The translations under genes were made by a program, and so were the position numbers. This document shows positions 41,860 to 57,179 of a stretch of DNA of 64,000 nt, piece by piece. Every line of letters begins with the position of its first letter. Position 1 is the stretch's first letter. Origin of the DNA: Mustelus asterias (taxonomy: Eukaryota); assembly GCF_964213995.1 (NCBI RefSeq), contig NC_135810.1, positions 88,040,001 through 88,104,000 on the forward strand, in the 5' to 3' direction. The notes beneath the pieces are model-generated. The model made no database searches and was not told the DNA's origin. It saw only the letters and a program-made list of their open reading frames with translations.

Positions 41860-43230
41860 TAGAAACATAGAAACTAGAAGCAGAAGTAGGCTTTTCGGCC
41901 CTTCAAGCCTGCTCCACCATTCATTTTGATTATGGCTGTTTATCAAATTCAATATCCTGATCACCCCACCCCCCATATCCCTTGATCTCTTTAGCCCCAA
42001 GAGCTATATCTAATTTCTTCTCGAAATCACACAACGTTTTGGCCTCAACTACATTCTGTGGTTGTGAATTCCACACATTCACCACCCTCTGGGTGAAGAA
42101 ATTTCTCCTTACCTGAGTTATGGAGTCATAGAGTCATAGAGGTTTACAGCATGGAAACAGGCCCTTCGGCCCAACTTGTCCATGCCACCCTTTTTTTTAA
42201 ACCCCGAAGCTAGTCCCAATTGCCCACATTTGGCCCATATCCCTCTATACCCATCATACCCATGTAACTGTCTAAATGCTTTTTAAAAGACAAAATTGTA
42301 CCCGCCTCTACTACCACCTCTGGCAGTTTGTTTCAGACACTCACCACCCTCTGTGTGAAAAAATTGCCCCACTTTTGTATCTCTCCCCTCTCACTTTAAA
42401 CCTATGCCCTCTAGTTTTAGGCTCCCCTAACTTTGGGAAAAAGATATTGACTATCTAGCTGATCTATGTCTCTCATTATTTTATAGACCTCTATATGATC
42501 ACCCCTTAGCCCTCTATGCTCCAGAGAAAAAAGTCCTAGTCTATCCAGCCTCTCTTATAACTCAAACCATCAAGTCCCGGTAGCATCCTAGTAAATCTCT
42601 TCTGCACTCTTTCTAGTTTAATAATATCCTGTCTATAATAGGGTCACCAGAACTGTACACAGTATTCCAAGTGTGGCATTACCAATGTCTTGAACAACTT
42701 CAACAAGACATCCCAACTCCTGTATTCAATGTTCTGACCAATGAAACCAAGCATGCTGAATGCCTTCTTCACCACTCTGTCCACCTGTGACTCCACTTTC
42801 AAGGAGCTATGAACATGTACCCCTAGATCTCTTTGTTCTGTAACTCTCCCCAATGCCCTACTATTAACTGAGTAAGTCCTGCCCTGGTTCAATCGACCAA
42901 AATGCATCACCTCGCATTTATCTAAATTGAACTCCATCTGCCATTCGTCAGCCCACTGGCCCAATTGATCAAGATCCCATTGCAATCCGAGATAACTTTC
43001 TTCACTGTCCACTATGCCTCCAATCTTGGTGTCATCTGCAAACTTACTAACCATGCCCCCTATATTCTCATCCAAATCATTAATATAAAAGTTCTAAAAG
43101 GTTTACCCCTTATCCTCAAACCCCTAGTTCTGGACTCCCCCACCATCGGGAGCATTCTTTCTGAATCTAACCTTTCTAATCCTGTTGGAATTTTATACGT
43201 TTCTATGAGATCCTCTCTCACTCTTCTAAA
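41860..43230 (-). mobile_element. Nested CR1 fragments: older copy (41860-42118, 43090-43230) interrupted by a younger copy (42120-43087)
   Basis: Two different antisense tails, (CATAGAAA) and (CATAGAGT)n; ORF 42644-43075 contains KFADDTK. Confidence 0.9.
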
Positions 43231-43249
43231 CTCTCTTATTTTATCAATA

Positions 43250-43684
43250 CATTTCTAAACCTTTAACTCTGCTGGCCAAGTTGGCTTATTCCACATCTGT
43301 CCCTCAGGTCTGGCAATATCTCAACTTGTCAAATGGGCCCACACTCCCAAAGAGAGGTATTCAGGTGAGCATTGTTTTCTCAGACTTTGATTAAAACAGG
43401 ATACTCACAGATGTCGGGCCAGAGCCAGTGTCATCATAATCCCATCCTCGTCGCCAGATGTAATGATGCACATTCAACAGAAACGTGAAAGATATTTATT
43501 AAGAAGAAAACCTACAGAGGCCAGCAGCCCACCCAGCTGCCCTAGTCCCTACATGTCTTCTTCATGTCTTCTACCTAAGAGAGGACTCCACCTCCTGGCT
43601 GATTACCCACTCTCAGTCCCAATTGGTCCCCCAAGCCAGGTGACCCTCTTCAGCTGTGCTGCCCTTAAAGGGGCAATCACCACA
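43250..43684 (-). mobile_element. Truncated Gypsy element: LTR 43459-43684, tRNA-Ser(GCT) PBS 43438-43456, decayed gag start
   Basis: TGTGGTGA...CATTACA termini, AATAAA, then TGGCGACGAGGATGGGATT, complementary to the 3' end of vertebrate tRNA-Ser(GCT); PLFGSVG-like gag remnant follows. Confidence 0.8.
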
Positions 43685-44276
43685 AAACACCACAACAATA
43701 TTCCTCTTAATTGGTTACCAACAGGCCCGCTGTCTAATGAATTGCCTAACTACACGTGAGTGTCATCAGGCAGTCTCAGTCTGACACAGGTTCAGCATTG
43801 TTGCAACATTAAGTAACCCACAGTAGGTCTTTGCTGTGTACTATATTTAGATACAATCCCCACAACTTATGCCATCACCAATTGTCCCAGACAGCCACCT
43901 ATATTGGACAAATGGTGCTGACCAATTTCCACACTTATGGCATCAATTACAATGGTGTTGTTTAAACCATATTAAGCGCAGTGACCCTTGCAGGAAGTTC
44001 AAGCAACTGTTCATACCTTTTTTTAAAGATTGTTTACGTGCCAGTTTGCTGCCACCAGCTCTGCTCCTCACCCCCAACCCTGTGACTGCTGCTTACAAAG
44101 GTGAGACTGACCAGCCCCATTCAGCTCTGATCAAACAATCCCTCAATTGATTACTTGTTCGTTACAGACAACTTTAACTCCATCATTCATTTGTAAGCCA
44201 TGGAGTAGCCAATTGAAAGTGATTACAAACTCCTATAAAGAATGGCTGGCCTGAACATTCATCTGATTCAACATGA

Positions 44277-45405
44277 CCACATGGTAGGTTGTTGCATAAG
44301 GTTAAATCTCACAGGATCCAAGGTGAGGTAGCCAAATGGATACAAAATTGGCTTGACAGAAGATAGAGGGTGGTGGTAGAGGGTTGTTTTTCAAACTGGA
44401 GGCCTGTGACCAGTGGTGTGCCTCAGGGATTGGTGCTGGGTCCACTGTTATTTGTCAATTATATTAATGATTTGGATGAAAACTTAGTAGGCATGGTTTG
44501 TAAGTTTGCAGATGACACCAAGATTGGTGGCATAGTGGACAGTGAAGAAAGTTATCTCGGATTGCAACGGGATCTTGATCAGTTGGGTCAGTGGGCTGAC
44601 GAATGGCAGATGGAGTTTAATTTAGATAAATGCGAGGTGATACGTTTTGGTCGATTGAAACAGGGCAGGACTTATTCAGTTAATGGTAGGGCATTGGGGA
44701 GAGTTATAGAACAAAGCGATCTAGGGGTACATGTTTATAGCTCCTTGAAAGTGGAGTCACAGGTGGACAGAGTGGTAAAGAAGACATTCGGCATGCTTGG
44801 TTTCATTGGTCAGAACATTGAATACAGGAGTTGGGATGTCTTGTTGAAGTTGTTCAAGACATTGGTAATGCCACACTTGGAATACTGTGTACAGTTCTGG
44901 TCATCCTATTATAGAAAGGATATTATTAAACTCGAATGGGTGCAGAAGAGATTTACTAGGATGCTACCGGGACTTGATAGTTTGAGTTATAAGGAGTGGT
45001 TGGATAGACTGGGACTTTTTTCCATAGAGCATAGGAGACTTAAGGGTAATTGTATAGAGGTCTATAAAATAATGAGGGGCATAGATCAGCTAGAGAGTCA
45101 ATATCTTTTCCCAAAGGTGGGTGGGTCTAAAACTAGAGGGCATAGGTTTAAGGTGACAGGGAAGATATATAAAACGGTCCAAAGGGACAATTCTTTCACA
45201 TAGAGGGTGGTGAGTGTCTGGAGCAAGCTGCCAGAGGCAGTACTAGAGGCAGGTATAATTTTGTCTTTTAAAAAGCATTTCAGTTACATGGATAAGATGG
45301 GTATAGAGGCTTATGGGACAAGCTTAGGGGTTAAAAAAGAGGTGGCATAGACAAGTTGGGCCGAAGACCCTGTTTCCATGCTGTAAACCTCTATGACTCT
45401 ATGAC
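44277..45405 (+). mobile_element. CR1 LINE fragment (277-aa ORF 44370-45203)
   Basis: RT motifs PQG and FADD; (CTCTATGA)n tail. Confidence 0.95.
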
Positions 45406-51875: not shown

Positions 51876-52385
51876 AACATATATTGCAGATCCATCTACA
51901 GTGTTGTGAGCACCAGAGTTTGATACCTTCATCAATGGACCAGCATAGTGCATCCCAATGAAATAGTGTAAATATATGTTTAGCACATTGGAGTGCATAT
52001 CATTGTCAGGACATGTGCCCCCTTCAGTGTATATTGTTGCTGGTGATCACCACAGGGAACAGCACCATTATTTCCACTGATTTGAAGTATCCAATCAAAC
52101 CAAAGCATTTTTTGCCACTACTTGCTTTGCCAATGGCGCACTCGGCTATATTTTAGAATGCCAATTACAGCTATAAAACAGTATTACTGCACTAAAACGC
52201 CAATTTAAAAGGATTAACGTGAATATATAACTGATTTGACAATTTATTGTTCCATTGGCCTGTAGGCTTGTAAACCACAACCTCCGATATATGCCAAATC
52301 TTACAACGCAGGAGGTCATTTGGGCCCATCATGCCTGTGTTGTCTCTTTGAGAGAACTAACCAATTAGCTCCACTCTCCGCGTTT

Positions 52386-52686
52386 TGCGCGATTAAATCA
52401 CACGGGAGTCTAGATTACCCGGGAAATAAAGGCTTTTATTACTAACAAGAATGGAGCCACTATATACAATACAATCCCAGACTAAAGGGTCACCAGGCAG
52501 TGCGGTGACCTTTATACTTCCCCAGGTAGGCGGAGCCAACTGGAGTGTACCACAGAACAATATCAACAGGTAGAACAGCCCAACCCTAACCCCAACAGTG
52601 ACAACAGTAACATATCTACAAACACCCATAGTGCTGACCAACCATGGCTCAGCACTCCTAGTGGTAACCGACTATGGTTCACCACA
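52386..52686 (-). repeat. 3' LTR, preceded on the minus strand by polypurine tract AAAGGAGGGGTGAA (52687-52700)
   Basis: Direct repeat of 56796-57099. Confidence 0.97.
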
Positions 52687-52750
52687 TTCACCCCTCCTTT
52701 AAAACAAAGGCCGGCGGGGCAAAAAAAAAACAGAACAACTGTTCATATCT

Positions 52751-55700
52751 TTACAAGTTCAGTCGTTTTGGGGGACCGCACCGTCTCTGCGACCTCCTCA
52801 ACATTGGCGATAACGCCGGTTCAGGTAACCGTGGTGACCTTCTCTCCAAGGCGGTGTCCAGTGACTCCTCCAGTTCCTCACGGACAGGTGGACCACGAGA
52901 TGGCGACAATCTGCTGGACTCGAGCACGCCTCGAGGTGGCGACAATCTCCTGGACTCAGGCAAGCTGTACACGGGAGTAATAGGATTAAGTGGTGGTCCC
53001 GATACTGCCCGCGCCGTGTCAGGAGGGGAGATAAGGGTCAGGGGGTCCCTAACTAGGGGTGTGGGAGCGACTGGGGTTTCCAAGTCCCCTGCAGGCGCCA
53101 GATCTCTAATAGAGACCGTGTCCTCTCGCCCGTCAGGATATGCCACATAGGCATATTGAGGGTTGGCGTGGAGGAGATGGACCTGTTCAACCAAAGGGTC
53201 AGACTTGCGGGTCCTAACATGCCGCCGCAGGAGGACAGGTCCTGAGTACATCAACCAAGACGGTAATTAGGTCCCAGAGGAAGACTTCCTAGGGAAGGAA
53301 AACATCCTCTCATGAGGGGTAGCGTTGGTTGCCGTACACAGGAGTGAGCGGATGGAATGGAGCGCCTCAGGGAGTACCTCTTGCCAACGGGAGACTGGAA
53401 GACCTTTAGACCTCAACGCCAGTAAGACAGCCTTCCAGACTGTAGCATTTTCTCGTTCAACCTGTCCGTTACCCCTAGGGTTGTAGCTCGTAGTTCTACT
53501 TGAGGCAATCCCATTTGAGAGCAGGTATTGCCTCAAGTCGTCACTCATGAATGACGAGCCCCTATCACTGTGGATATAGCTGGGGTAACCGAACAGGGTG
53601 AAAAGATCCCGTAATGCTTTGATAACCGTGGCAGCGGTCATATCAGAACAGGGAATGACAAAAGGGAATCGTGAGTACTCGTCAATCACATTGAGGAAGT
53701 ACACGTTCCGATTTGTCGAGGTCCACACTCAGTCTTTCAAAAGGGCGAGTGGCCTTAATGAGGTATGCCCTGTCAGGTCGGTAGAAGTGCGGTTTGCATT
53801 CCGCGCATACCTGGCAGCTTCTGGTTATGGACCTGACATCTTCCACCGAGTAGGGTAGATTCCGGGCCTTTATGAAATGGAAGAGCCGAGTGACCCCCGG
53901 ATGGCAGAGATCATTGTGGAGAGCCTGTAATCGATTCTCCTGCACACTTGCACATGTTCCACGCGACAGGGCGTCTGAGGGCTCATTGAGCTTCCCTGGA
54001 CAGTACATGATATGATAATTGTAGGTGGAGAGTTCGATTCTCCACCTCAAGATTTTATCATTTTTGATCTTACCCCGTAATGTGTTGTTGAACATGAACG
54101 CCATGACTGCTGGTCCGTGAGCAGAGTGAATCGTTTTCCCGCCAACTAATGGCGCCAATACCGAACGGCCTCCACAATGGCCTGGGCCTCTTTTTCCACC
54201 GCAGAGTGCTGAATTTCAGGGCCTTGGAGGGTGCGAGAGAAAAAGGCGACGGGCCTGCCCGCCTGGTTAAGTGTGGCGGCCAGGGCGAAATCAGATGCAT
54301 CACTCTCCACCTGGAAGGGGATGGACTCATCAATAGCGTGCATCGTGGCTTTCGTGATGTCGGCTTTTATCCCTGCAAAGGCTAAGCGAGCCTCTGTTGC
54401 TAGGGGAAAGGAGGTAGACTTGATGAGCGGACGGGCTTTGTCCGCATAATTGGGAACCCACTGTGCATAGTATGAAAAGAAGCCTAAGCATCTTCTCAGT
54501 GCTTTGATGCTCGTGGGCAGGGGAAGTTCAAGGAGGGGACGCATACGGTCTGGATCAGGGCCAAGGACCCCGTTTTCCACCACGTATTCGAGAATTGCTA
54601 GGCGGCGCTTGCAAAATACACACTTCTCCCTGTTGTAGGTCAGATTCAGGCGAGATGCAGTGCGTAAAAATCTAAGGAGGTTGGCATCGTGGTCCTGCTG
54701 GTCATGGCCGCAGATAGTGACGTTATCCAGGTACGGGAAGGTAGCCTGCAGCCCGTTCTGGTCCACCATTCGGTCCATAGCACGCTGGAATACCGAGACC
54801 CCATTCGTGACACCAAAGGGAACCCTTAAAAAATGGTACAGACGACCATCCGCCTCAAAGGCCGTGTATTTTCGGTCCTCTGGGTGAATGGGGAGCTGGT
54901 GGTAAGCTGACTTCAAGTCAATGGTGGAGAACACCCGGTACTGCGCAATCTGATTGACCATGTCAGATATGCACGGGAGAGGGTACGCATCCAGCTGCAT
55001 GTATCTATTAATGGTCTGACTATAGTCTATGACCATCCGGGGTTTGTTCCCATTTTTAACCACCACTACTTGCGCTCTCCATGGACTAGAGCTAGGTTGG
55101 ACGATCCCTTCCCTGAGGAGCCGCTGAACTTCAGATCGAATGAAGATCCGATCCTCAGCGCTGTAATGCCTGCTCTTTGTTGCGATGGGCTTTCAGCCTG
55201 GCACGAGATTCTCGAATAGAGAGGGTGGGGTGATTCTGAGTGTCGAGAGGCTACACATGGAGCGCGCTGGGCAATTTGGAGGCTGCTGTGCTCCCACTGA
55301 AAGTGGAGGGAGTGGCCCATCATACTGCAGCGTTACACTCTTCGGGTGGACCATAAAGTCTAGTCCCAGGAGTATCGGAGCGCAAAGGTGCGGTAACACA
55401 AGGAGCCTGAAGTTCTCGTAAACCATGCCCCGCACCGTCAGGTTGGCCACGCAGCTCCCTAGCACGGTGACAGACCGGGACCTCGACGCCATCGAAATTG
55501 TCTGCCTGACAGTCCGTACCCAGAGACCGCACTGTTTCACGGTGTCAGGGTGAATGAAGCTCTCCGTGCTCCCGCTGTCAAACAAACAATGAATCTGGCG
55601 TCCATTTACCTCTATGCCCATCATGGACTTGTTGAGTCTGTGAGGCTTGGCCTGGTCCAGGATGATTGACGCCACCGTTGGGTCTTGGGTGCAACTGCAG

Positions 55701-56760
55701 GCAGCTGAGATGGTTGATGATGATGATGACCCCTGCTGGTCGTCTGCGGTCGGTGCCGACCAACATGGCTGCCCCCATAGGTCGCACATGGTCGATGGCG
55801 CTAAAAGTGGCGGCCTCTGCAGGTCGCACGTGTCTTGCGACTCCGTCATCAGGAATGGCGGCGCTCTGGAATCGCACATGGCGGAAGACCTCGAAGACGC
55901 TGGAGAGAAGAAGACAGGCTCCGGAGAATCACACGCCGCGCTATGTTTGGAGAGTGGTTTGGTCCTGCAGACTTTGGCATAATGCCCTTTCTTTCCGCAG
56001 GCGGAGCACAATACCATTCTAGCTGGACATCGCTGCCGAGGGTGTTTCGCCCCTCCACAGAAGTAACACCGCGGGCCTCCTGGAGCTGCCGCCGTCTTCA
56101 GGTCCGAGGTTGGAAACACAATCGCGCAGTTTTTCAGAGCCACTGAATAAAGTTGAGTCGGTGGCTGTACATGCCACGATGTTCCCACGTGGTCGGCGGG
56201 GTACATCTTTAGACTTTTGGAGGCCGTTTCCAGAGCGTCAGCCAATTCTACCGTTTTAGTGAGGTCTAGATTACCTTGCTCTAACAGCCGAAGGCGAATG
56301 TACGACGAGCCAATTCCCGCCACAAACGCATCTCGGACCAAGTCGCTCATATACTGGGCCGCCGACACTGGCTTGCAGTTGCAGGCTCTGGCTAGCTGCT
56401 GAAGTTCACACAGGTACTGTTCCGTCGTTTCGACGGGCTGCCGCCGTCGCGTGGCTAGAAGGTGTCGAGCATGGATCTCGTTTGGCGGTTTGTTGTACCG
56501 CTTCTCGAGAAGTTCGATGGCCCCTTTGTAGTCTTGGGCATCGCGGATTGATAAGTATATGGTGTCGCTTGCCCTCGCGTGGAGGACCCGCAGTCTGTTG
56601 GCGACGTTTTGAGGTCCCGCAGTCTGTCGGCGTCGTTTTGAACGGCTGTTGAGGCATCGATGTAGTCTTGGAAACACTTTAACCAATGGTCGAAAGTGTT
56701 CGACGCTCCTGCCGCACGTGGATCTAACGTAAGCCGCTCGGGTTTCAACATTTGCTCCAT
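52751..56760 (-). pseudogene. gag-pol polyprotein pseudogene of the Gypsy element
   Basis: ATG at 56760; twin zinc knuckle CYFCGGAKHPRQRC..CSACGKKGHYAKVC; protease LFDSGS; RT IDLKSAYHQ and YLDNV; RNase H ESDAS..EKEAQA; integrase HHCC, SDRG..F, NGQVER. Premature stops at about 55193, 54146 and 53267; frameshifts at about 56610, 54110 and 53725. Confidence 0.95.
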
Positions 56761-56795
56761 GGTTTAAAAAAAATTTTTGTTAGTAATAAAATTGA

Positions 56796-57099
56796 TGCGC
56801 GATTAAATCACTCGGGAGGCTAGATTGTACCCGGGAAATAAAGGCTTTTATTACTAACAAGAATGGAGCACACTATATACAATACAATCCCAGACTAAAG
56901 GGTCACCAGGCAGTGCGGTGACCTTTATACTTCCCCAGGTAGGCGGAGCCAACTGGAGTGTACCACAGAACAATATCAACAGGTAGAACAGCCCAACCCT
57001 AACCCCAACAGTAACTACAGTAACATATCTACAAACACCCATAGTGCTGACCAACCATGGCTCAGCACTCCTAGTGGTAACCAACTATGGTTCACCACA
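56796..57099 (-). repeat. 5' LTR with TATA (GTATAAAGG, about 56922-56930) and AATAAA (56847-56852)
   Basis: Direct repeat of 52386-52686; immediately upstream of the gag ATG. Confidence 0.97.
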
Positions 57100-57179
57100 C
57101 CGCGTTTTCCCCATAAACCTGTAAATGTTTCCTAGATGATATTTTTGTGAGCTGATATTGATTGAACAATGAAGCATCT

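What the first reader, a model, noticed from the sequence alone, without database searches (positions are those of the whole stretch)
56773..56864. Gypsy element with no tRNA PBS; the PBS position holds a perfect antisense copy of its own poly(A)-signal region
Seen: on the element (minus) strand the 5' LTR ends ...AATCGCGCA and is followed by TCAATTTTATTACTAACAAAAAT, not TGG..., with the gag ATG only 35 nt later. The 15-mer at 56777-56791 is the exact reverse complement of LTR 56846-56860 (18/19 when extended), which contains the AATAAA. The LTR also has a competing local hairpin, AATAAA-AGCC-TTTATT. Known: most Gypsy elements prime on a tRNA 3' end, as the PBS at 43438 in this window does. 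Tf1/sushi-type elements self-prime with the RNA 5' end, and HIV-1 occludes its 5' poly(A) signal in a hairpin. Inference: the duplex could mask AAUAAA only in the 5' LTR, could give tRNA-independent priming (after cleavage, or from the R copy at the RNA 3' end), or both. The geometry differs from Tf1 because the paired segment lies about 40 nt downstream of the TATA-predicted start. PBS-less Gypsy groups have been reported in aquatic animals, so novelty must be checked.
Basis: partly seen in the sequence, partly recalled or inferred. Interest (0 to 1): 0.8.

Follow-up and report, generated by a model that had tools for sequence, protein, structure and literature searches.

The report
Self-priming Gypsy with rewritten primer site
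This jumping gene and thousands of relatives have no tRNA landing site; the spot where DNA copying starts is instead a mirror copy of the element's own poly(A)-signal region and changes letter for letter with it, so the group likely primes itself with a cut piece of its own RNA.

Summary
Confirmed, with one correction. The 15-mer therefore starts one base after the LTR, the normal primer-binding position.

The feature is clade-wide. It appears in 109 of 125 copies and 26 of 28 leader groups, in this genome and in metagenome relatives with 30-42% gag identity, with 25 different stem sequences. In 30 genome-order copies, the six free positions pair Watson-Crick 174 of 180 times (permutation mean 99). 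They vary as much as gag third codon positions, and G-U pairs are nearly absent (1 of 338). This suggests the site is recopied from the primer each cycle.

Best reading: tRNA-independent priming by the R segment, cut after AAUAAAA. Masking of the 5' poly(A) signal is predicted but probably secondary. The local hairpin is not supported.

It works like Tf1 but fails two Tf1/sushi tests: no chromodomain and no pretzel fold. The predicted primer also starts about 36 nt inside the RNA. No RNA end or cut was observed. Ten literature searches found no report for this clade. This scan has noted the same signature before in other genomes.

The parts
56793..57099 (-). 5' LTR, 307 nt, TG...CA (true end ...CGCGCATCA)
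56924..56929 (-). TATAAA box; spacing to initiator and arm conserved across subfamilies
56892..56900 (-). Initiator-like TTAGTC; predicted transcription start at A 56896 (not mapped)
   Evidence: A lies 32-34 nt after the first T of TATA in three families
56846..56860 (-). Primer arm in R, containing AATAAA (56852-56847); predicted primer 3' end at 56846 or 56847
56829..56845 (-). Sequence just after the predicted cut (GCCT...). In 14 of 26 groups it forms an RC(C/T)T...AGGY hairpin; only a weak 4-bp version here
56792..56792 (-). One-base spacer (A) between LTR end and primer-binding site; CA-A-T in 26 of 26 groups
56777..56791 (-). Primer-binding site: exact reverse complement of the arm, no TGG
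52751..56760 (-). gag-pol (two CCHC knuckles, PR, RT with YLDN, RNase H, IN; no chromodomain); broken in this copy by a short tandem duplication in gag, stops and frameshifts
   Evidence: family domain set
52691..52700 (-). Polypurine tract AAAGGAGGGG, followed by TGAA and the 3' LTR
52386..52686 (-). 3' LTR, of a different R/U5 variant than the 5' LTR and missing the terminal TCA
52434..52448 (-). Second copy of the arm, in the 3' LTR (rival primer source; poly(A) signal predicted mostly open here)
57100..57107 (-). Left copy of an 8-bp flanking duplication AAACGCGG (family norm is 5 bp)
52378..52385 (-). Right copy of the 8-bp flanking duplication

Best explanation
This Gypsy element carries at its primer-binding position an exact antisense copy of its own poly(A)-signal segment, and it likely primes reverse transcription with that segment after a predicted cut just behind AAUAAAA. 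Shown: the complementarity, its fixed register one base after the LTR end, and its lock-step covariation across the clade. Inferred steps: (1) The RNA starts near 56896, and the 5' R arm folds onto the site across a 54-nt loop. (2) The RNA is cut between the arm and the conserved (G/A)CC, probably by the element's RNase H as in Tf1, leaving a 3'-OH facing U5. (3) The short R stretch from the cut to the poly(A) site serves first-strand transfer. (4) Plus-strand synthesis copies the primer into the new primer-binding site, so one mutation in the arm is carried to its partner without a second mutation. The same duplex would hide the 5' AAUAAA as a by-product.
For: Register: the arm's 3' end pairs one base from the LTR end in 26 of 28 groups, with loops of 24-72 nt and a ragged far end of 13-18 bp. 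LTR ends were confirmed by second LTRs and 5-bp duplications in L060, L074, L075, L080. Covariation: 25 distinct 13-nt arms in 26 groups; 174 of 180 free positions Watson-Crick against permutation mean 99, maximum 132 in 10,000. Templated-copy signature: 333 WC, 4 mismatch, 1 G-U at group level, while the neighbouring hairpin closes with G-U in 6 of 14 groups. Paired positions 8-13 have diversity 0.44 (arm) and 0.47 (site), against 0.40 for gag third codon positions and 0.33 for unpaired R. All 11 stem types held by two or more copies are fully WC at 8-13, and swaps include double transversions. Seven of eight checked 5'-arm mismatches are absent from the same copy's 3' LTR, so they arose after insertion. 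Fold: pairing probability 0.91-1.0 for 14 of 15 pairs, z -2.83. Controls: TGG-type Gypsy families of this genome pair at most 7-8 of 13 with their own LTR. Precedent: Tf1 primer made by RNase H cleavage (PMC7175516, passage).
Against: No RNA start, cut site, poly(A) site or strong-stop cDNA was observed. Sequence cannot tell the 5' R copy from the 3' R copy. The Tf1 three-duplex pretzel is absent, so what presents the cut is unknown; the post-cut hairpin is clear in only 14 of 26 groups and weak in the three families of this genome. A 50-nt primer would need trimming for only 13-18 nt to be inherited. CpG decay inflates diversity at positions 8-9. Strict selection for WC pairs could also remove G-U, though it would not predict near-neutral variability. 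Two of 28 groups (L065; L115/118/131) show no duplex; they look decayed or truncated, but this was not proven.
Confidence: 0.6

Rival explanations
1. Self-priming, but by the 3' R copy: the RNA's own 3' end, cut or trimmed back to AAUAAAA, loops onto the site. The whole 5' R stays available for strand transfer, and RNase H would leave exactly the paired 13-18 nt to be copied into the new site.
For: Same register, covariation and G-U depletion. It explains why the primer end sits at the poly(A) signal and why only the paired part is inherited. AAUAAA is predicted partly open in the 3' context. One group has only 24 nt between arm and site (L063), leaving little homology for transfer in the 5' model.
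Against: The 5' copy lies 54 nt away and pairs with probability near 1, so it would occupy the site first. All precedent read here uses the 5' copy.
Confidence: 0.17
2. Tf1 geometry after all: the productive RNA starts at or just before the arm, so the primer is simply the first 11-18 nt.
For: In many metagenome groups the arm contains an initiator-like TTAGT/TAAGT whose A lies 11 nt from the arm's end; position 10 is G-C in 25 of 26 groups. 19 of 23 metagenome groups show no TATA box upstream, and LTRs are short (about 120-220 nt).
Against: In this genome TATA and initiator are conserved 82-84 and about 50 nt before the arm's end. The second TATA-like word (56879) is missing in a sister subfamily and badly spaced. 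Pairing covaries at positions 12-13, upstream of the putative +1.
Confidence: 0.1
3. The duplex exists mainly to hide AAUAAA in the 5' LTR and prevent premature polyadenylation; priming happens some other way.
For: Predicted occlusion in the 5' context only; 17 of 26 arms contain AATAAA or ATTAAA; arm positions 1-7 are invariant in 30 of 30 copies.
Against: Nine of 26 arms lack a canonical hexamer, including ...GAAGA and ...GATAGA with compensated partners. Masking needs neither the exact one-base register nor avoidance of G-U. No alternative TGG site follows the LTR end in any leader examined.
Confidence: 0.08
4. The match is kept by a DNA-level process (template switching that perfects inverted repeats), or the primer is an LTR-derived small RNA or host RNA fragment acting in trans.
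For: Template switching would give pure WC pairs. Solo LTRs are abundant and could supply arm-containing RNA.
Against: It does not explain the fixed register, the missing tRNA site, or that the 3' LTR arm also matches the site. A host RNA cannot follow at least a dozen site variants in one genome. Longest complementarity to 26 sampled host tRNA sequences was 6 nt.
Confidence: 0.05

Closest known systems
Tf1/Tf2 (Schizosaccharomyces pombe), Tj1, Tosmo1-3 and the Tf1/sushi chromoviruses
   Same: Ty3/Gypsy domain order; no tRNA site; site directly after the 5' LTR complementary to the element's own R region (passages of PMC7175516, PMC4600332, bioRxiv 2022.12.06.519325).
   Different: No chromodomain. 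No pretzel flanking duplexes. Stem 13-18 bp rather than 11. Predicted primer starts about 36 nt inside the RNA and ends on the poly(A) signal. RT motif mostly YxDN. Named protein relatives span cartilaginous fish, cnidarians, nematodes, an ant, a sea cucumber, a tunicate and a mussel.
Plant Tcn1 (Gypsy) and TAR/Houba/Osr-1 (Copia) predicted self-primers
   Same: Defined in print by the same criterion: at least 10 nt starting 0-5 nt after the LTR, complementary to the 5' LTR (PMC6317226, passage).
   Different: Other lineages and hosts; Tcn1 groups with Tf1/sushi, TAR is Copia.
tRNA-primed Gypsy families of the same genome (TGGCGACGAGG-type, labelled Mag-like from recall; TGGAGGCACC-type)
   Same: Primer site 1-4 nt after the LTR's CA; similar polypurine tract ending ...GAA before TG.
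   Different: They carry TGG sites, YLDD, 28-35% RT-RNase H identity, and sit outside this clade with support 100/100.
HIV-1 5' poly(A) hairpin (recalled, not read)
   Same: AAUAAA predicted to be base-paired in the 5' repeat.
   Different: Here the partner lies outside the LTR, at the primer site, so only the 5' copy can pair; the local hairpin is unstable.
Dictyostelid Skipper elements
   Same: Gypsy elements that lost the TGG site (PMC5006619, passage).
   Different: They have a polypyrimidine stretch with no complement in the LTR, and a chromodomain.

Membership tests
Ty3/Gypsy LTR retrotransposon | PR-RT-RNase H-IN order after gag | tested here: met
   Pfam; best PDB match is Ty3 RT
Ty3/Gypsy LTR retrotransposon | TG...CA LTRs, polypurine tract, short target duplication | tested here: met
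   (5 bp in 17 of 18 sisters; this copy has an aberrant 8-bp duplication)
tRNA-primed Gypsy | TGG site complementary to a tRNA 3' end | tested here: not met
   CA-A-T in 26 of 26 groups; site varies with the LTR
half-tRNA / tRNA-fragment primed elements | Site complementary to an internal tRNA stretch | tested here: inconclusive
   Longest run 6 nt against 26 tRNA sequences of 7 anticodon types only; covariation with the LTR argues against it
Tf1/sushi group | Primer site complementary to the element's own 5' LTR | tested here: met
Tf1/sushi group | Chromodomain at the integrase C-terminus | tested here: not met
   No Chromo hit at E<=0.01 in L031's ORF, P0002, P0003, P0012 or the window's last ORF
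Tf1/sushi group | Three-duplex 'pretzel' (site-adjacent sequences pair with LTR downstream of the primer) | tested here: not met
   Each flanking duplex significant in 1 of 26 groups, as chance gives
Tf1/sushi group | [quoted passage not shown] | tested here: inconclusive
   Conserved TATA and initiator place the start about 36 nt upstream of the arm; no RNA ends available
Tf1/sushi group | RNase H cleavage releases the primer | not testable with these tools
   Needs biochemistry
Tf1/sushi group | RT phylogeny within the chromoviruses | not tested
   No Tf1 or sushi reference sequence could be brought in; the SH3_Tf2-1 search of this genome gave old fragments with no recognisable chromodomain
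Mag lineage (features recalled) | Two CCHC knuckles in Gag | tested here: met
   Seen in translation and alignment
Mag lineage (features recalled) | Groups by RT with the TGGCGACGAGG-site family | tested here: not met
   Separate clade, 100/100, long branches flagged, midpoint root only
HIV-1-type poly(A) hairpin | Stable local hairpin inside R occluding AAUAAA | tested here: not met
   +0.5 kcal/mol; absent in sister families

The most novel reading that the evidence does not exclude
A pan-animal, non-chromoviral Gypsy clade evolved self-priming independently of Tf1. Its primer is the poly(A)-signal segment itself, possibly the RNA's own 3' end. One duplex both primes and silences the 5' poly(A) signal, and each cycle rewrites the primer-binding site from the primer, so a base-paired element evolves at neutral speed with no wobble intermediates.
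Probability: 0.35. Interest if true: 0.82.

Novelty: new variant of a known kind. Interest (0 to 1): 0.63.

Why it matters
In the papers read here, self-priming is shown for Tf1 and predicted for its chromoviral kin and one Copia lineage. Here the signature marks a large separate clade: 3,491 matches to one LTR-end-plus-site pattern in this genome alone, and at least 1,175 database proteins pass E<=1e-40 on RT-RNase H. The geometry is different: an internal primer ending on AAUAAA, with no pretzel. If true, freedom from host tRNA has arisen repeatedly and is common in animals. It would also put such elements out of reach of tRNA-fragment silencing at the primer site (inference), and annotation tools that demand a tRNA site would miss them. 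The dozen-plus site variants in one genome make an old question testable by sequence: whether the primer is inherited into the new primer-binding site.

Tried and rejected
RNA evidence: no RNA holder was listed and only assembled contigs were served; laying them gave no start, end or poly(A) junction.

The viral collection gave only 4 weak zinc-knuckle hits.

Rejected: the local AATAAA hairpin; the second TATA-like word at 56879 as promoter (absent in a sister subfamily); the pretzel; Rfam families (3 matches, all far under gathering score). A splice-made primer was also rejected: the arm is contiguous in DNA, pairing runs through the AG, and several groups have TG there. An apparent amplified mismatch (L146/L151) is one insertion duplicated with its flank.

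Naming the clade failed. No YLDN/YIDN/FPYLD in five supplements of PMC6238403 (one file unreadable) and no paper with YLDN. The Saci-2 paper and three primary or review papers on Tf1 self-priming were not held. Saci-2 and the MolGy clades remain unchecked candidates for a published name.

Full report
Anatomy. The window holds a 4.7-kb Ty3/Gypsy element on the minus strand: 5' LTR 57099-56793, gag-pol from 56760, a polypurine tract at 52700-52691 and a 3' LTR at 52686-52386. Pfam finds protease, RT, RNase H and integrase in that order and no chromodomain. This copy is broken. The family is young: 18 scored sister copies differ by 0-10 substitutions between their LTRs. The nearest named proteins are from rays and sharks, at 74-84% identity in RT-RNase H.

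The observation. The 15-mer 56791-56777 is the exact reverse complement of 56860-56846; 3 matches in the window against 0.01 expected. Of 20 fetched sister loci, 19 had both LTRs, and their 3' LTRs show that the LTR ends ...CGCGCATCA, with 5-bp duplications in 17 of 18 scored. The stem thus begins one base after the LTR. Read as a primer, the arm's 3' end points into U5, the direction minus-strand synthesis needs. Folded from the predicted start, 14 of 15 pairs form with probability 0.91-1.0 (z -2.83).

Distant relatives. A gag alignment retrieved 80 metagenome and 4 genome-bin loci. I used 65 of the 84; the other 19 mostly did not reach the gag start or had almost no upstream DNA. With 60 copies from three families of this genome, that made 125 leaders, grouped by hand into 28 groups. 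Some metagenome loci are probably the same insertion in different assemblies, and their hosts are unknown. With an anchor that counts G-U as paired, 109 of 125 copies and 26 of 28 groups reach at least 11 of 13 pairs; shuffled LTRs do so in 115 of 8,400 trials. The 16 failures show deletions, truncations or decay, and none has a TGG at the LTR end. Second LTRs confirm the boundary in L060, L074, L075 and L080. The 26 groups have 25 distinct arms, loops of 24-72 nt, and CA-A-T at the junction in all 26. The near end of the stem is fixed; the far end is ragged at 13-18 bp. A protein tree of 41 RT-RNase H rows puts all duplex-bearing loci in one clade of 34 rows (100/100), apart from the genome's TGG-type families; long branches were flagged and the root is midpoint only. 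Those TGG-type families pair at most 7-8 of 13 with their own LTR.

Covariation within this genome. A pattern fixing the LTR end and site positions 1-7 and 14-15 matched 3,491 places. In the first 30 in genome order, anchored only on the invariant part, positions 8-13 gave 174 WC, 3 G-U and 3 mismatches of 180, over 14 site variants; permuting arms among copies gave mean 99, maximum 132. In 87 of 96 copies kept for a gag tree (9 dropped for a damaged anchor), all 11 stem types shared by two or more copies are fully WC at 8-13, and every wobble or mismatch there is a singleton. Of 16 copies fetched again, 12 had a second arm. Where the 5' arm was the deviant, the 3' LTR arm matched the site in 7 of 8; L144 differed elsewhere.

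Why the site looks recopied. At group level, positions 1-13 hold 333 WC, 4 mismatches and 1 G-U. The adjacent RC(C/T)T...AGGY hairpin, present in 14 of 26 groups (2 expected), closes with G-U in 6, so these RNAs tolerate wobble elsewhere. The paired positions are as diverse (0.44 arm, 0.47 site) as gag third positions (0.40) and unpaired R (0.33), and include TA/GC/CG/AT swaps that cannot pass through G-U. A helix kept by selection alone should evolve slowly and through wobbles. A site copied from its primer, as retroviral sites are copied from tRNA (established knowledge, recalled), needs one mutation. This is inference; CpG decay adds to the diversity at positions 8-9.

Start site and poly(A) signal. 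In this genome TATAAA lies 82-84 nt before the arm's end, with an initiator-like A 32-33 nt after it, in 26 of 30 copies; two sister families agree. The predicted primer is therefore about 50 nt, with only its last 15 paired. Most metagenome groups show no TATA, and their arms often contain an initiator-like word, so Tf1 geometry stays open there. AAUAAA is predicted closed in the 5' context and mostly open in the 3' context. However, only 17 of 26 arms hold AATAAA or ATTAAA, and two end GAAGA or GATAGA with compensated partners. Register is universal; the hexamer is not. No RNA ends could be read (see Tried and rejected).

Mechanism. Most likely (0.6) the 5' arm pairs with the site, the RNA is cut after AAUAAAA, the cut end primes, and the site is rewritten from the primer. 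Rivals: the 3' R copy as primer (0.17), a start inside the arm (0.10), masking as main role (0.08), DNA-level or trans effects (0.05). Self-priming in some form is thus about 0.85-0.9.

Comparison with print. Tf1's first 11 bases pair with its site and are cut by RNase H (PMC7175516, passages). Tj1 is proposed to do the same (PMC4600332, passages). The Tf1/sushi group is described with a chromodomain, a 5'-terminal primer and a three-duplex pretzel (bioRxiv 2022.12.06.519325, passages; PMC5341516, passages). Two of these were tested and not met, so this element works like Tf1 but is not filed in that group; its tree position against Tf1 was not tested. Plant Tcn1 and TAR are predicted self-primers (PMC6317226, passages). 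Skipper lacks both tRNA site and complement (PMC5006619, passages). Passages of PMC10886601, PMC3601003, PMC6238403, PMC2774666, PMC2582038 and PMC8556966 gave no report of this signature; two mollusc and annelid surveys never mention primer sites. Ten searches found none for a non-chromoviral animal Gypsy clade. The library lacks most subscription papers, Repbase and GyDB, and four wanted papers were not held, so a prior description is possible. One unreadable supplement of PMC6238403 may bear on the clade's name.

Earlier notes of this scan. Four AI reports on other genomes describe the same signature; none matched by sequence or in this genome. My reading was fixed before that call, and they are not counted as evidence.

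Verdict. Real, conserved and not chance: a new variant of self-priming in a large animal Gypsy clade, with sequence evidence that the primer site is inherited from the primer. The cut, the start site and the primer's source remain unobserved. Interest 0.63.

Noticed in passing
window 55192-54146 (RT); clade-wide: The RT motif reads YLDN/YMDN/YIDN instead of YxDD in 26 of 34 in-clade rows; 5 read YLDD and 3 have no motif in the segment. The family is young, so the changed catalytic motif appears to be tolerated.
   Followed up: partly
window 52378-52686 and 57100-57107: This copy's 3' LTR is an R/U5 variant found 20 times in the genome and differs from its 5' LTR. It lacks the last three bases and is flanked by an 8-bp duplication. 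Likely a recombinant cDNA with one aberrantly joined end.
   Followed up: partly
arm position 10, all groups: G-C in 25 of 26 groups; the window's subfamily is the exception (A-T), while its sister subfamily keeps G-C. A sequence-specific determinant is possible but unexplained.
   Followed up: partly
5' arms and sites of 90 copies in this genome (hand count): Singleton changes fall mostly on arm-U/site-A pairs: about 8 T>C against 0 A>G in arms, about 6 A>G against 1 T>C in sites. The rest of the LTR is symmetric. Numbers are small; adenosine editing of the duplex is one untested idea.
   Followed up: partly
window 43437-43460, minus strand: Remnant of another LTR element with a TGGCGACGAGG primer site, the same type as L214/L217/L218.
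   Followed up: partly
L199-L213, L215: A second young Gypsy family in this genome with long ORFs, satellite-like LTRs and a TGGAGGCACC primer site.
   Followed up: no
L219-L227, L229, L230; L228: Old fragments that seem to have integrase upstream of RT (Gmr1-like order, label recalled); L228 is a different integrase tail that looks retrovirus-like.
   Followed up: no
L135-L137: Members of this eukaryote-type clade sit in three bacterial genome bins, probably host contamination.
   Followed up: no
window 42554-44993: A 535-nt, 95% inverted pair of repeat fragments 1.4 kb apart surrounds the 43438 remnant.
   Followed up: no
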